In this document: piece after piece, positions 18,001-30,000 of the stretch
How positions within the stretch are numbered: the first letter of the stretch is position 1
Layout: the number at the start of each line of letters is the position of its first letter
NCBI GenBank assembly: GCA_050575255.1
Contig: JBNZDD010013398.1
Coordinates: forward strand, 163,360-227,359
DNA length: 64,000 bases
Reading direction: 5' to 3'
DNA from: Harriotta raleighana
Taxonomy: Eukaryota
Program-made: the position numbers

Positions 18001-21000
18001 CGTGGGGCGCAACTCTGGAGAGATCAGAGTAATCAGTGATATATTGGGCAAAGATGGAACCAAACAAAGTCTCGTCGTGTTGATAAGGGACAATGGAGTA
18101 CCCAGCCTTTCCGCCACTGTGACTGTCATTGTTTTAATCATGGCCAACGTTACCAGACACGAGTTTGAACACAGCAACCTTCTCCCACAGTCTGATGATT
18201 TCTCTGATTTAAATCTGTACTTAATCATCACATTCGCCTCAACTTCGTTTGTGTTTCTCTTGACTATCGTGGTCCTCGTTGCCATCAAATGCCACCAAGA
18301 TCACAGCTTCGCTGATGGATACACGTCCGAATTCTGTTGTTGCAGATGGAGAGATTCACCCGAATCTTTCACTGGGAGATCCGCACAAAGAGAGTCCTTA
18401 AATTACGACGGCGTTATGCAAAGTGCCCCCATTCCCGGAAGTTACAGTTACAGATATTGTCTATCGCCCGAATCAGCCAAAACCGACTTCCTGTTTCTAA
18501 AGGCTTGTAATTCCTCTTTGCCGCAGAATACGCTCAGGATAACTGACAGTAATACGAGTAAATGAAATTGTTCGTGAAGGCAGTGCAGTGAATAGTAGAC
18601 AAGTTTCATCTTACAGAAGGTGAGACGCTTCATTGAAAGAAATTGCACGGACATATTCAGTAAGGGTGGAATCTCACTTTCTGGGGTTAAAATAAAGACA
18701 AGATTATTTGGTGGTGAATTCAGTGTTTATCTAGTTGGAAATGCTGATGCTGAGAAATTGAGTTTGAGTTAATTTGGGCCCAGACTGTTAACATCATGTC
18801 AAAGAAATGCACTTCAGTTACCCACCTCATTGTATTCAATTGAACTTCAAAATTGTTCCTGAAGTTTGGATCCTCACTTCAATATTTCACACTTGTTTAA
18901 CATTTAAAATTTCCTAACACATTCACATCACATTCTTAGACGAATTCCAACCCAGGTCGAAATCCCGTGGTGCTTCCTCAATATGCAACTACGAATTATA
19001 AGTCCTCTGCATGAGTGTTTGGTGTCAGCCACCTGTCCACAGTTCAATTGAGGTCATGACTTGCATGGCAGTTGTTTGTTCTGACTTCTTTGATATAATT
19101 TATCTGTTAAATAAAAAAAGTAGGTACTCTAGTTGGTTTCATATTGTTTGTGGGGGTTAGTACATTGCACCAAAAATACCCTTTGATATTTAGCGTTTTA
19201 CACAAAATATTCCCCAAGATTTGAGTTTTGCGCAGAGTTTGGTACTAACACTATGTTCAATGATCCCTCACCCTAGAGGAATGAATACATTGGAAGACAA
19301 GGAACGTATACTTGAACCCATTCTGCCATTCTAATAGATCATTGCATTGAAATATATTCCAAAATATGCTATTCAGTCCTCGCTAATTATTGAATATATT
19401 TTGACCTATTTTATCTGTCTATTACCTTACCATCAATTTGTTTCATATGTTTTGGAACCATTATTTTGCATGTGAATTTCTTCACATTTTGAATAAATTG
19501 GAACGTTAACCAAAAGAACGTCTGATTTTGTGTAATCTTTAGGTCTTTTTCCACCTCAACTTATGACATGGTACAATAATATTCAGTAACATTCGCAATG
19601 ACAATGCGGGTGGGTGGCAAAACTTTGATGAAAATAACAGATTTTAAAGGTAATTCGATAAATTGTTGAAAAGAGAATCATTTATAAGTGCCGAGGGACT
19701 GAGCAGGAAAGCGCCCCGAAATAATATCTTTATTGAATAGCCAGTACCTTCAAAATGTGCTATAGGGCTCTCATTTGTGGTTCGAATTTCCACAGTGTTT
19801 AGTTGCAAAACTTGCCATGAGGAATGATAAAAACAGAATTACGCGCGGGAATCAACTAAAACGCCTAGTTTCCAAATTCAAAAATTGTATGGATGGATTT
19901 GAAAGCAGACGATTGTAAACGAAAGTAAGCTGTTGGTTTCAGCTTCACTATAATGGAACGCAAACATCGTTGCTAATGTAGTACAACGTTGAATTCATCC
20001 CTTTTCCGAGATGTTAAAGAAATAATAATATTCATTAGATTTTGTATAGCGCCTTTTATGTCAGGAGGACAACCCAAAATGCTCCCCATGATATACTGTA
20101 ACGCGGAAACAAATATGTAGGCTTTGGTTGGCAAGTAATAAAACAATCTTACAGCTTTACAAATCGAAAGGTGAACGAACCAAAAATACATAGGAACCGG
20201 GAACTGACCATAATGGCACTGAAGCAGAGGGTTTCCTAAAATAATTCCGTAGAAGGACATATACTAAGTTTTTCATTTATTTTATGCATTCGAATGATGG
20301 TAATACATAAGCAAACATGATTCAATCAATCAGAATGCCTTGGTGTGTGCCGTATGATATTTGGGTTGCTCAACAATAAATAGCGTGGCTCTTGGCGGAC
20401 ATCAATTCATAAGAAGCTGCCTCGCTTTAAGTAAAGCTCAGTGCAGTTATTGGACGAGACTCGTTGTGTCGCTGTCTACCAATAAGGAACGAAAGCTTTG
20501 CAAGCGATCTCTCACTCCTCCCTCTTTACCAGACACGGAGCAGAAGAACAGAGAAAGCTGCGCATTGCCTGTGTTTGCAGTACGGGGCCATGTTCTGAAA
20601 GATCCAGGTCGCGTATTTAGATTTCTAGGTATAAATTCCGCATTTACAGACATAATTTCTTGTGGATCCAACCAGTTAACTGAAGAGGAAGCGGTAGCGT
20701 TTTCTGTGATTGAAATCAACAATGGCGAATCCACGGAGCTGCTGGTTGTTAACGTGGAAGGTCGCGCGTTTCGTCATGTTGCTTTGTGTGGCGGACCTGA
20801 CAACTGGACAGATTCGTTACTCTATTCCCGAGGAATTGGAGCTGGGTGCTTTCGTTGGGAATGTGGTTGAAGATTTGGGATTGAAGATTCAGGAGCTGTC
20901 GAGGCGGAAATGCCGTCTGGTCTCCGACAAAAGAAAGCAGTATCTGGAGGTAAAAATGGAGAATGGAATCTTATTTGTGAATCAAAGGATAGACAGGGAG

Positions 21001-27000: not shown

Positions 27001-30000
27001 CTCAATCGTTGCTAATGTGACCGGAAACGATTTGAAACGCAACATGGTCCTGAACAAGACTGAACGTTTCTCTGACCTGAATTTGTATTTGATCATTCTC
27101 TTTGGCACCACTTCGTTTCTGTTTCTGCTGATTATTATGATACTAGTTGCCCTGAAATGCCACCAAGACAGCAGCATTGGTCGTGGGTATGATTCAGGCA
27201 TCTGCTGTTATAGCAGGAATGTGTCAAGGGATCAGTTTACTCGGAGGACAACGGCAAGAGAATCCGTGCATTATCCAGGAATAAGAGAAAGTGACGCTGT
27301 CCCTGACATGTACAATTACAGATTTTCTCTCTCCCCGGAGTCAGCTAAAAGCGACTTTCTTTTTCTCAAAAGCTACAATTCCACGTCACCCCAGAACGCC
27401 CTCAAGATCACAGACATCAACGTGGTGAAGGAATTTGACCAGCAATTCAATTCGGTGGTGAAAAGGCAATAACTTAATTTGAGAAGGTGAGGCACTCAAT
27501 TAAACAACGGGCTGTCCATTGGTGCAGAGAGGCTCAGAACTAATGTGACAGACACGAATAGAGCCATGGAGCAGGACCGGTGGACATATATAAATATTTG
27601 CACAATCATTATTGTAAAGTGAATATTATACTTAACAAAGTGAGTATAATATAACAATGTGTTTTCTATTTGAAGCGGGCAAAGCAATCGACAAGCATTC
27701 CAAGGTCAGCTCTAGACACCAGTTAGCTCGACTGCAGTTTAAATACTTTGAGTGAACAGTTTGAACTTGTGGTTGAAAAGTCAGAATATAATATTGTTAT
27801 CTGCAGGACTGTCTAGGTGCCAGACTCGGTGTTTACTTTCACCACAACATTTTAACTGTTTGTGGATTAGAACAACAAAGCAAATTACACTTGTATAGTG
27901 ACCTTCCTGTGAAAAGGTGTCGCAGGATGCTGGACAATACACGCTAAAGTATTAAAAAATAACAGTGAGTTTTGCTTTCCTCTGTATTCGATATATTCCT
28001 GCAAGCTGTGGCCATCTATAATTATTTGAGCATCAAGTCATCAGTTCTCATCCCCAATTTGATGCTACTTATTAAGAAAGAATCTCTAACGTTGTATTTC
28101 AAATTTTATTTAATAACATTTGCAGTGATGCTTCTGCCACCAAAGACGTGCCATTAGCTGGTGAATATTCGCAACAGTTTTGCAATGGATAGTTTGTTAA
28201 TTTCCACAGGACATTTCTTCCCCTCTTTTCCAACATTTTACTAATAACTTCATTTCCCTTTCTTGCAGGAGAATAAACCATATCGATCAAGAAAATGTTC
28301 TCGTATTTACTCCAGGGGATTTATGTGGACCTTGTGGTTTTTTTTCCAATATTCTATCAATCCACCCATACCTTCAATGGGTTTCACTTACTATCTTTAC
28401 AAAACATGTTCTGATTTCTTATGGCATGAAGTGTATTGTGTATTGATGTCCTAAAGTCTCTAGACTTACCCAAGGGAATGTCAATATTTCTAACTGAATA
28501 TTTACCAAATAATGTCAATTCAATAAATCACTTTTTTTGTTCATATTCGCAGTGTGGCTGTCTCTAACTGTCTTGGTAAACATTAGGCGTAATTCGGGGA
28601 CACCAGAGAGTGTTTTGGAGGTACTTCTGTGGTTTAATCAGGTAAGAAAGCAGGTGGCTTGCCAGTGGGCACACTGTCCAGTCAGCTTGTTTCTGCTCTT
28701 TCAGATGAGATAATCCTACCTTTAGGCCTTCAGTTTTGCAAGGATCACAGGAGTTGAGTGAGAAGCACCAGGGTGCTTTTGTGCTCCCACTCACTACAGT
28801 GCGACAATACAGTGATCCAAATCATAAGATATTAATTTAATTCAAATACAAAGAACCAGTTAAATGGATTCCAACTGCCTATTTATAGCAGCAGAAAAGT
28901 TAGTTAAGAATAAAGCCCATCTGGAGCATAACCATGGAGTTTCTGACACCGTCACACAAAGCTATCACATTTTTGGAGATATTTTCCTTCGAGGCATAAA
29001 CCAAGAAGGTTTATTGATTCATTGGTAGGTATTATGACTTGCCTGCAATTCAGCTTTAAGGAAAGCTTAATGCAGTTATTGGTTGAGGCTCTTCGTGTCG
29101 CTGTCTACCAATAAGGAGCTCCTACGTTTAAGAGATCTACCCTGCCCCCTCCCCCATCATAAAAGGCAGATCACGCGCACAGAGAAAGACACAGAATGCC
29201 TGCGTTTGGGAAGGGTAGCCATGTTCAGAGAGGCAGAACTCGATTTATTTGAATGCTAGTCTTTGATATTGATACATGCACGCATTCATCTACCCGTCTA
29301 TTGTTCTCACAAACAACTGGGTGTAAGTAAAAAGAGGATTGTGTTTAATATAACAGAGCACCAGGAAATTAAAAAATCACAACAATGGCGAACGCGCTCA
29401 GCTGCAGCCAGTCTCTCGTTTTGCTGCTTGTGCTCTGGGACCTTGTATCCGGCGAAATACACTACTCTATTCCCGAGGAGATGGCTCACGGCGCCTTTGT
29501 GGGGAACCTTGTGAAAGATTTAGGACTAAACGTTCGGGTTTTGGCGGATCGGAAATTCCGCCTGGTCTCCGATGACAGAAAGCAATATCTGAAGGTAAAT
29601 TTTGAGAATGGTTTTTTGTTTGTGAATGAAAGAATCGATAGGGAACAGCTATGTGGGCAAAGCTCTACCTGCTCGCTATCCTTTGAAGTCGCGGTTGAGA
29701 ATCCGATGGAAATATATCGCGTGGAAGTGGAGGTCGTGGACATTAATGACAATTCTCCCGGATTTCTGAAAAGCGGTGCCTACTTGGAGATCAGCGAATT
29801 AATTCTTCCGGGAGCTCGCTTTCCCCTCGAGAGCGCGCACGATCCGGACGTGGGTATCAACACAATCAGCTCTTACCAAATTAGTTCGAACGAATTCTTC
29901 GGGCTAAACGTACAGGCGAGAAATGATGGTACTAAAATTGTCGAGTTATTGTTGGAAAAGGCTTTGGATCGGGAGCAACAGCCATCTCTTCAGCTGGTCC

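What the first reader, a model, noticed from the sequence alone, without database searches (positions are those of the whole stretch)
18542..27492. Positionally conserved splice-donor-like sites lying after the stop codon in three paralogues
Seen: AAG|GTGAGA at 18620, AGC|GTGAGT at 23198 and AAG|GTGAGG at 27487 lie 78, 76 and 77 nt after the start of the conserved Thr-Asp codons (18542, 23122, 27410). The intervening sequence has diverged, the phases differ, and in-frame stops precede the sites by 54, 1 and 14 nt. Known: alpha/gamma variable exons splice in frame to coding constant exons; beta genes are single-exon. Inference: a possible intermediate architecture in which variable exons encode the whole protein yet splice to a shared non-coding 3' exon (all within or at the ~50-55 nt NMD limit), or vestigial donors recording how a beta-like cluster arises by losing its constant region.
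Basis: partly seen in the sequence, partly recalled or inferred. Interest (0 to 1): 0.75.

Follow-up and report, generated by a model that had tools for sequence, protein, structure and literature searches.

The report
Splice-donor sites after protocadherin stop codons
Three neighbouring brain cell-adhesion (protocadherin) genes of a chimaera-like fish each end in a stop codon but keep a strong, conserved splice-donor signal just after it, probably inherited from an ancestor that was spliced to shared exons.

Summary
GT lies at 18620, 23198 and 27487, which is 78, 76 and 77 nt after the Thr-Asp codons and 54, 1 and 14 nt after the stops.

The window is part of a clustered-protocadherin array of a cartilaginous fish. 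It is closest to the elephant shark (Callorhinchus milii) epsilon subcluster but is not that species: 83-88% amino-acid identity. It is not human.

The three sites are among the best U1-complementary GTs on the strand: ranks 9, 18 and 160 of 3729. GTGAG is the last block conserved in all three paralogues before similarity falls to background.

The sites sit about where mu-type variable exons of cartilaginous fishes join their constant exons. That junction is 22 codons after the homologous Thr; here the distance is 25.3-26 codons.

The other 12 gene tails examined have no good site. No constant exon lies in the window.

Best reading: these are inherited variable-exon donors, still under constraint, in genes that already encode complete proteins. 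Whether they are spliced today could not be tested: there were no transcripts and no DNA from other species.

The parts
16142..18565 (+). g2: intact epsilon-type protocadherin gene (807 aa from the first ATG). Stop TGA at 18563-18565. The tail is cut short by a 1-nt insertion relative to g4.
18617..18625 (+). g2 donor-like site AAG|GTGAGA, GT at 18620, 54 nt after the stop
   Evidence: 8/9 consensus match; U1 duplex -9.6 kcal/mol, rank 18 of 3729
18691..18696 (+). First AATAAA after g2, 71 nt downstream of the GT
20722..23196 (+). g3: intact epsilon-type protocadherin gene (824 aa). Stop TAG at 23194-23196. The tail is read in a frame shifted by a 1-nt deletion relative to g4.
23195..23203 (+). 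g3 donor-like site AGC|GTGAGT, GT at 23198, 1 nt after the stop
   Evidence: 7/9 consensus match; U1 duplex -6.5 kcal/mol, rank 160 of 3729
25010..27472 (+). g4: intact epsilon-type protocadherin gene (820 aa). Stop TAA at 27470-27472. The C. milii counterpart's protein model ends at the same residue.
27484..27492 (+). g4 donor-like site AAG|GTGAGG, GT at 27487, 14 nt after the stop
   Evidence: 8/9 consensus match; U1 duplex -10.1 kcal/mol, rank 9 of 3729
27499..27504 (+). First ATTAAA after g4, 12 nt downstream of the GT
18542..18547 (+). Conserved Thr-Asp codons of g2. The same codons are at 23122-23127 in g3 and 27410-27415 in g4. They are residues 13-14 after the FLFLK motif and align with NT[DE]T of mu-type tails.
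23134..23142 (+). Weaker upstream in-frame GT in g3 (GTG|GTAAAG, GT at 23137). The g4 counterpart is at 27425 (GTG|GTGAAG). g2 has AG, not GT, at this position.
   Evidence: -5.3 and -5.4 kcal/mol, 8th-9th percentile; alignment
20413..20570 (+). Conserved promoter block upstream of g3: ATTGG, then a CGCT box, then CCAAT. Equivalent blocks lie at 15807-15968 (g2), 24670-24831 (g4) and 29053-29208 (g5).

Best explanation
The three GTGAG sites are genuine 5' splice-site elements (U1 snRNP binding sites). They were inherited from an ancestor in which this kind of protocadherin 'variable exon' was spliced to shared constant exons, as the neighbouring mu-type genes of cartilaginous fishes still are.

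In g2, g3 and g4 the reading frame now stops 54, 1 and 14 nt before the site, so each gene encodes a complete, constant-less (beta-like, epsilon-type) protocadherin from one exon with its own promoter. The site has nevertheless been kept intact in all three paralogues while the sequence around it diverged. This argues that it is still recognised.

My working model is inferred, not shown. Some transcripts escape the nearby poly(A) signals and splice from this donor to a distant acceptor outside the window, most plausibly the constant exons of the next subcluster downstream. That would give an alternative 3' UTR or an NMD-sensitive isoform without changing the protein.

Shown: the sites exist, they are strong, they are conserved in position and sequence, they correspond in position to the mu junction, and stops lie upstream of them.

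Inferred: descent from a used donor (about 0.7) and present-day use (about 0.45).
For: Identity of the genes:
- 13 intact ORFs of about 800 aa on one strand.
- The 6 of the 13 ORFs scanned (g1-g5, g13) have Cadherin_2, five Cadherin domains and Cadherin_C_2, and no Cadherin_tail.
- The best relatives are C. milii epsilon proteins, which have no PF15974 (Cadherin_tail) in the precomputed Pfam lists. The mu proteins do carry it.

Strength of the sites:
- 8/9, 7/9 and 8/9 matches to MAG|GTRAGT.
- U1 duplex energy ranks 9, 160 and 18 of 3729 GTs for g4, g3 and g2.
- g3 has lost the exon-side matches but has T at +6. That is the kind of compensation seen at real donors.

Conservation:
- All three GTs fall in one alignment column.
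- GTGAG is the last block conserved in all three. Identity falls from 0.4-0.55 just upstream to 0.23-0.40, the level of unrelated sequence under MAFFT, from 12 columns past the GT.
- p = 6e-4 for five conserved columns at that place, given the flank rate.
- C. milii has separate counterparts of g3 and g4. The paralogues therefore split before the two species did, and the site has survived in three lineages since.

Position:
- In 22 of the 24 mu-type proteins examined, the variable tail is joined to VGQ[LPM]NTDW... after an E, Q or D codon, which implies phase 0.
- Epsilon and mu tails are collinear from the Y.Y[KR] motif to T[DE]. The mu junction is 22 codons after that Thr; the epsilon GTs are 25.3-26 codons after it.

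Layout:
- Each site lies between the stop and the first poly(A)-like hexamer where one is near (g2 and g4).
- Each gene has its own CGCT-box promoter.
Against: - There is no transcript evidence of any kind.
- No acceptor, constant exon or conserved downstream block lies in the window.
- The other 12 tails examined (10 intact genes and 2 pseudogenes) have at best a 6/9 match within 70 nt of the stop. The site is therefore not needed by epsilon genes in general.
- Whether the GT[GA]ACG about 13 nt after the stop of the HEFKQ-type genes is a decayed copy depends on the alignment chosen.
- If synonymous sites (62-68% identity among g2-g4) are taken as the neutral rate, chance retention of 5 bases in three lineages is roughly 0.03 by my estimate, not 6e-4. 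A run of 5 or more conserved columns somewhere in the tail arises in 7% of shuffles.
- Epsilon-like genes of about 20 shark and ray species are annotated as proteins of about 797 aa that stop 11-24 residues after FLFLKP. None of the 120 best hits joins such a tail to a constant region. The constant-less state therefore looks ancient, which makes an unused relic harder to explain but also shows no in-frame splicing.
- Splicing to a multi-exon constant region would place junctions far downstream of the stop and should trigger NMD (established 50-55 nt rule).
Confidence: 0.5

Rival explanations
1. Unused relics. The sites are leftovers of the ancestral variable-exon donor with no present function. 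They simply have not yet decayed in this subfamily, while they have decayed in the other paralogues.
For: - 12 of 15 tails lack a good site.
- The tail beyond Thr-Asp is clearly under weak constraint: there are 1-nt frameshifts in g2 and g3 relative to g4, and the C. milii counterpart of g3 has a different, longer tail.
- Mouse Pcdh-beta genes are unspliced (PMC3431597).
- With synonymous-site identity of 0.62-0.68, neutral retention has a probability of a few percent, which is not impossible.
Against: - The local three-way identity around the site is 22.5%, which gives p = 6e-4 for retention.
- g2 and g4 share 10 identical bases across the site.
- Stops upstream of the site look old. The g4 stop is shared with C. 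milii, and epsilon-like genes of sharks also stop early. A neutral relic would have had a long time to decay.
Confidence: 0.3
2. A U1-binding site that regulates 3' end formation without splicing. A 5' splice-site sequence shortly upstream of a poly(A) signal suppresses cleavage there. This mechanism is established for some viral and cellular mRNAs; I state it from memory. Here it would shift these genes to distal poly(A) sites or to read-through.
For: - The GT lies 12 nt (g4) and 71 nt (g2) upstream of the first ATTAAA or AATAAA.
- U1 complementarity is strong.
- There is no acceptor nearby.
Against: - g3 has no canonical hexamer for 722 nt.
- Nothing here tests poly(A) site use.
- This does not explain why the site sits where the mu junction lies, unless it was co-opted.
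Confidence: 0.12
3. These genes are really spliced in frame from a weaker donor upstream of the stop (GTG|GTAAAG at 23137, GTG|GTGAAG at 27425) to constant exons. On this reading they are ordinary variable exons, and the post-stop sites are intronic decoys.
For: Both upstream sites are in phase 0 after a Val codon, the same phase as the mu junction.
Against: - The U1 duplex energies are only -5.3 and -5.4 kcal/mol (8th-9th percentile).
- The g2 position corresponding to 23137/27425 reads AG, not GT; the nearest GT, at 18558, is at the 28th percentile.
- The sites lie 5 codons after the Thr, against 22 in mu exons.
- The Val-Val codons are not kept in the C. milii counterpart of g3, which has Gly-Ala there.
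- 0 of the 120 best database hits join an epsilon-like tail to a constant region.
Confidence: 0.03
4. Coincidence. GTGAG arose by chance in the common ancestor's 3' flank and means nothing.
For: Donor-like words are common: 38 GTGAG on the + strand and about 0.83 good sites per kb.
Against: By my estimate, the joint chance of a top-percentile site within a few codons of the expected junction, kept in three paralogues, is about 1e-3 or less.
Confidence: 0.05

Closest known systems
Protocadherin epsilon subcluster of the elephant shark, Callorhinchus milii (Yu et al. 2008; UniProt B0YN63, B0YN64, B0YN69, B0YN72, B0YN73 seen as hits)
   Same: - It gives the best protein matches.
- The domain make-up is the same, with no Cadherin_tail.
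- The same tail types occur (...ARHEFKQ/H, ...KEFDQQFNS..KxQ).
- The same local gene order is implied by chimeric database models.
   Different: - It is a different species (83-88% identity for g3 and g4, about 80% for the HEFKQ genes).
- I could not read the 2008 paper (not held), so I cannot say whether post-stop donors were noted there.
- That epsilon lacks constant exons is my recollection. It is supported only indirectly: a later paper lists constant exons for alpha, gamma, delta, mu and nu only (PMC2764143, passage).
Mammalian, coelacanth and lizard Pcdh-beta single-exon genes
   Same: They are tandem variable-exon-like genes, each with its own promoter, stop and poly(A), lying upstream of a cluster that has constant exons. 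They have no constant domain (PMC2764143, PMC4978886, PMC7811963, PMC3431597; passages read).
   Different: - They are not orthologous; beta is reported only in lobe-finned fishes and tetrapods (PMC2764143).
- In mouse no splicing to constant exons was detected (PMC3431597).
- I found no report of conserved post-stop donors in beta genes in four literature searches. This is not proof that none exists.
Spliced variable exons of alpha, gamma and mu type protocadherins
   Same: A strong 5' splice site follows the short variable cytoplasmic tail. The position is within 4 codons of the mu junction, and the tail is collinear with mu tails.
   Different: The frame is closed by a stop 1-54 nt before the site. 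The three sites are in three different phases. No constant exon is in reach in the window.
3' UTR introns and the 50-55 nt NMD rule
   Same: The stop-to-junction distances of 54, 1 and 14 nt would be exempt from NMD if this were the last junction.
   Different: The acceptor and the number of downstream junctions are unknown. The g2 distance is borderline.

Membership tests
Clustered protocadherin (variable-exon type gene) | One ORF of about 2.4 kb that encodes a signal peptide, six cadherin repeats, a transmembrane segment and a short cytoplasmic tail | tested here: met
   Cadherin_2 plus five Cadherin domains plus Cadherin_C_2 in the 6 of the 13 ORFs that I scanned (g1-g5, g13).
Clustered protocadherin (variable-exon type gene) | Tandem array on one strand, each unit with its own promoter carrying the conserved CGCT-box element | tested here: met
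   13 ORFs, all on the + strand; a block with ATTGG...GTGTCGCTGT...CCAAT lies upstream of all 7 genes aligned. The CGCT box is described in PMC4978886 and PMC2926608 (passages read).
Epsilon (constant-less, beta-like) subcluster of cartilaginous fishes | Closest relatives are epsilon proteins; the ORF ends in the variable exon; no Cadherin_tail domain | tested here: met
   (C. milii epsilon 8, 9, 14, 17, 18 and unnamed C. milii models).
Epsilon (constant-less, beta-like) subcluster of cartilaginous fishes | No constant exons at the 3' end of the subcluster; transcripts unspliced and polyadenylated | not testable with these tools
   The window ends inside the array. tblastn found no constant exon within it. 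No transcripts were available.
Spliced variable exon (alpha, gamma, mu, nu type) | Strong 5' splice site at the end of the variable cytoplasmic tail | tested here: met
   The position is compared with the mu junction.
Spliced variable exon (alpha, gamma, mu, nu type) | Reading frame open up to the donor and in phase with constant exon 1 | tested here: not met
   Stops lie 54, 1 and 14 nt upstream. The phases are 0, 1 and 2, whereas the mu junction is in phase 0.
Spliced variable exon (alpha, gamma, mu, nu type) | Constant exons downstream in the same transcription unit | tested here: inconclusive
   None lies in the 64 kb. The region beyond the window was not available.
NMD-exempt 3' UTR intron | Stop codon no more than about 50-55 nt upstream of the last exon junction | tested here: inconclusive
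   The distances of 54, 1 and 14 nt fit for this junction. The acceptor and any further junctions are unknown.
Functional 5' splice site | Junction reads or cDNA that show the site is used | not testable with these tools

The most novel reading that the evidence does not exclude
Three epsilon-type protocadherin genes encode their whole protein in one exon. They nevertheless use a conserved donor just after the stop codon to splice, across the rest of the array, onto the constant exons of the next (mu) subcluster. Those coding exons would then serve as a shared 3' UTR or as an NMD switch. This would be a living intermediate between 'variable exon' and 'single-exon gene', and a way of coupling the expression of two protocadherin subclusters.
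Probability: 0.2. Interest if true: 0.7.

Novelty: new variant of a known kind. Interest (0 to 1): 0.45.

Why it matters
Clustered protocadherins give neurons their individual surface identity. How constant-less clusters such as mammalian beta or shark epsilon arose from spliced variable-exon clusters is inferred only from gene trees.

Conserved donors that sit after the stop codon, at the place where the sister mu exons are spliced, would be a direct footprint of that transition. They suggest that variable exons at the 5' end of a cluster became independent by gaining a stop and a poly(A) site before losing their splice site.

If the donors are still used, they would add a new layer of regulation, through 3' UTR choice or NMD, to protocadherin isoform expression.

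The question can be tested directly with brain RNA-seq from any chimaera. If the sites are not used, the finding is a modest evolutionary footnote.

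Tried and rejected
- **Cluster members.** The listing of cluster members, meant to show alternative isoforms of the C. milii counterparts, was not run because the database is switched off.
- **C. milii g3 tail.** A search with the tail of the C. milii g3 counterpart (P0003, residues 745-849) returned only P0003 itself. No spliced or alternative C-terminus could be seen.
- **Protein alignment across the site.** Aligning that C. milii tail to g3 read through its stop gave no reliable alignment beyond ...MTD.H..K. 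My by-eye match, which would put Cys-Gly-Lys opposite TAG-CGT-GAG, is therefore only a lead. Whether C. milii keeps the GT cannot be told from protein.
- **Representative search.** The search with the g4 tail gave 53 hits, mostly fused gene models. Its use was to lead to the mu-type protein P0165.
- **HEFKQ-type genes.** They have GT[GA]ACG about 13 nt after the stop. I considered it a decayed copy of the same site, but a 15-sequence alignment places it elsewhere. This is unresolved.
- **Other elements.** Rfam gave 0 matches over the whole window. Repeat searches of the three intergenic regions found none. Pfam on seven ORFs of 1-9500 found nothing significant. Nothing there explains the sites.
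- **Papers not held.** Yu et al. 2008 and Wu et al. 2001.
- **No DNA of other eukaryotes.** Conservation of the GT in other species stayed unchecked.
- **No spliced model.** Variable tails and the mu constant region were handled separately.

Full report
**What the window is.** The + strand carries 13 intact ORFs of 794-828 codons as listed. I scanned six of them (g1-g5 and g13) against Pfam. Each has an N-terminal Cadherin_2 domain, five Cadherin domains and the variable cytoplasmic domain Cadherin_C_2, and none has Cadherin_tail. Three decayed copies also lie on the + strand, at about 9500-11664, 52354-54667 and 62735-64000. The minus strand has no ORF of 250 codons or more.

A search with the C-terminal 225 residues of g3 finds cartilaginous-fish proteins first. 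These include the Callorhinchus milii proteins named protocadherin epsilon 8, 9, 14, 17 and 18, and unnamed C. milii models. Identity to the best C. milii counterparts is 83-88% for g3 and g4 and about 80% for the nine genes ending ...ARHEFKQ. The window therefore comes from a chimaera-like fish that is not C. milii. It is not human, and no restriction on human sequence applied.

Each gene has its own conserved promoter block (ATTGG, CGCT box, CCAAT). This block is the only intergenic sequence that paralogues of different types share.

**Checking the observation.**
- GT lies at 18620, 23198 and 27487.
- The Thr-Asp codons start at 18542, 23122 and 27410.
- The Thr-to-GT distances are 78, 76 and 77 nt.
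- The stops (TGA, TAG, TAA) end 54, 1 and 14 nt before the GT.

The octamer AAGGTGAG occurs twice on the + strand of the whole window, and both copies are these sites. On a simple 9-position consensus, 53 of 3731 + strand GTs are 'good', about 0.83 per kb in coding and non-coding DNA alike. By predicted pairing energy with the 5' end of U1 snRNA, the g4, g2 and g3 sites rank 9, 18 and 160 of 3729 GTs. Only g2, g3 and g4, that is 3 of the 15 gene and pseudogene tails examined, have a good site within 70 nt of the stop. The best match in any other tail is 6/9.

**Conservation.** g2, g3 and g4 form a subfamily: 66-72% amino-acid identity and 62-68% identity at fourfold synonymous sites. g2 and g3 show clear gene conversion near the membrane-spanning region, with 30-nt windows at 97-100% identity.

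In a MAFFT alignment the three Thr-Asp codons fall in one column and the three GTs fall in another. Pairwise identity falls in steps:
- 0.6-0.8 in the coding body;
- 0.4-0.55 in the last 48 columns before the GT;
- 0.23-0.40, the level of unrelated sequence under MAFFT, from 12 columns past the GT.

GTGAG is thus the last block shared by all three. It is also the longest three-way run in the 107 columns from just after Thr-Asp to 35 columns past the GT. With the flank's three-way identity of 22.5%, five conserved columns at one named place has p = 6e-4. A run of 5 or more somewhere arises in 7% of column shuffles. The 10-base identity between g2 and g4 across the site arises in 2.4% of shuffles.

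C. milii has separate counterparts of g3 and of g4, so the three lineages are older than the split between the two species. The C. milii counterpart of g4 ends at the same residue (...KEFDQQFNSAMKGQ against ...KEFDQQFNSVVKRQ), so that stop is old too.

The tail itself is loosely constrained. g2 carries a 1-nt insertion and g3 a 1-nt deletion relative to g4. This explains the 78/76/77 spacing, the three phases and the three different stops.

**Where spliced relatives are joined.** A representative search with the g4 tail led to a 955-residue protein with a constant region. A search with the C-terminus of that protein returned 24 proteins, among them C. milii protocadherin mu1, mu3, mu5, mu6 and mu7 and B0YN84, plus shark and ray homologues.

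In 22 of the 24, the variable tail is followed by VGQ[LPM]NTDW... after an E, Q or D residue. The other two lacked the literal string my script looked for and were not examined further. All six C. milii mu proteins share the identical continuation. Because E, Q and D alternate before the same constant sequence within one species, the junction is in phase 0.

Epsilon and mu tails are collinear from the Y.Y[KR] motif through [DE]F.FL to T[DE], which is residue 13-14 after the hydrophobic motif in both. The mu junction lies 22 codons after that Thr. The epsilon GTs lie 25.3-26 codons after it. The sites therefore sit, to within four codons of an indel-prone tail, where a variable exon of this family ends. 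No constant exon of mu or of two other types is detectable in the window.

**What argues against present use.**
- There are no transcript data, and no DNA of other eukaryotes could be searched.
- No conserved downstream block or acceptor exists in the three intergenic regions.
- Ten intact paralogues do without a good site.
- Epsilon-like proteins of many sharks and rays are annotated as products of about 797 residues that stop 11-24 residues after FLFLKP. None of the 120 best hits joins an epsilon-like tail to a constant region.
- In mouse the analogous beta genes are polyadenylated single-exon transcripts, and no product spliced to constant exons was detected (PMC3431597, passages read).
- That the elephant-shark epsilon subcluster has no constant exons is my recollection of Yu et al. 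2008, which is not held. The indirect support is that a later paper from the same field lists constant exons only for alpha, gamma, delta, mu and nu (PMC2764143, passage), and that epsilon entries lack the Cadherin_tail domain while mu entries have it.

**Interpretation.** Chance is very unlikely. The simplest account is descent from the donor of a spliced variable exon. The excess conservation of the site over its flanks, together with the apparent age of the upstream stops, suggests that the element is still recognised.

I therefore favour a still-functional 5' splice site or U1 site in genes that already encode complete proteins. Splicing to a distant acceptor outside the window is the most likely use. 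An unused relic is the main rival. A splice-independent effect on the nearby poly(A) signals (AATAAA at 18691, ATTAAA at 27499) is a third possibility.

**Limits.** I made no joined variable-plus-constant model. The exons and the constant region were searched separately. MaxEntScan and SpliceAI were not available; the U1 duplex energy and a 9-position consensus stand in for them. Supplements of the cited papers were not consulted.

Noticed in passing
window 34860-35190: g6 is interrupted at the single N (34929). After it, about 260 bases of the same gene's cytoplasmic tail appear again, and the gene then ends normally (...HEFKQ, TAA at 35187-35189). This looks like an assembly duplication or collapse rather than biology.
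   Followed up: partly
window 9500-11664; 52354-54667; 62735-64000: Three decayed protocadherin copies with frameshifts and stops. The middle one is of the HEFKQ type and fills the apparent gap in the 3.25-kb spacing of that sub-array. The last one runs off the window.
   Followed up: partly
window about 18120-18300 and 22700-22880 (420-240 nt before the Thr-Asp codons): g2 and g3 are 93-100% identical in several 30-nt windows around the transmembrane and juxtamembrane region, while both are 60-80% identical to g4. This is a local gene-conversion tract between neighbours.
   Followed up: partly
window 12116-12269, 15807-15968, 20413-20570, 24670-24831, 29053-29208, 32311-32462, 38961-39058: A promoter block shared by all paralogue types: ATTGG, about 15 nt, GTGTCGCTGT (CGCT box), CCAAT[AG]AGGAG, then a C-rich stretch. 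It is the only intergenic sequence conserved between distant paralogues.
   Followed up: yes
window 220-348: The best U1-complementary GT of the whole window is CAG|GTGAGT at 343 (9/9 consensus match, -12.2 kcal/mol). It is preceded by a 41-codon open frame, far upstream of the first protocadherin copy. There is no Pfam match and no similarity to mu or other constant regions. It could be an exon of an unrelated neighbouring gene.
   Followed up: partly
window 31790-32610 and the equivalent spacers of the HEFKQ genes: The spacers of about 0.82-0.85 kb between HEFKQ-type genes align along their whole length. They carry an AATAAA 505-531 nt after the stop in 5 of the 9 intact genes (a sixth, g13, at 513, has a different downstream flank), right at the edge of the next gene's promoter block. 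Several of these genes also have an in-frame open leader of 18 codons before the ATG.
   Followed up: no
window 27419-27472: The g4 tail contains an imperfect internal repeat of about 30 nt (...GTGGTGAAGGAATTTGACCAG... then ...GTGGTGAAAAGGCAA..., read as VVKEFDQ / VVKRQ). This may explain why its tail is about 10 codons longer than that of the HEFKQ genes.
   Followed up: no
database proteins P0001, P0005, P0008, P0020 (C. milii, unnamed models): These automatic gene models fuse pieces of two neighbouring epsilon genes; for example, a g4-like gene runs into the leader and N-terminus of the next gene. Their lengths (880-1286 aa) are therefore not evidence of spliced isoforms.
   Followed up: partly
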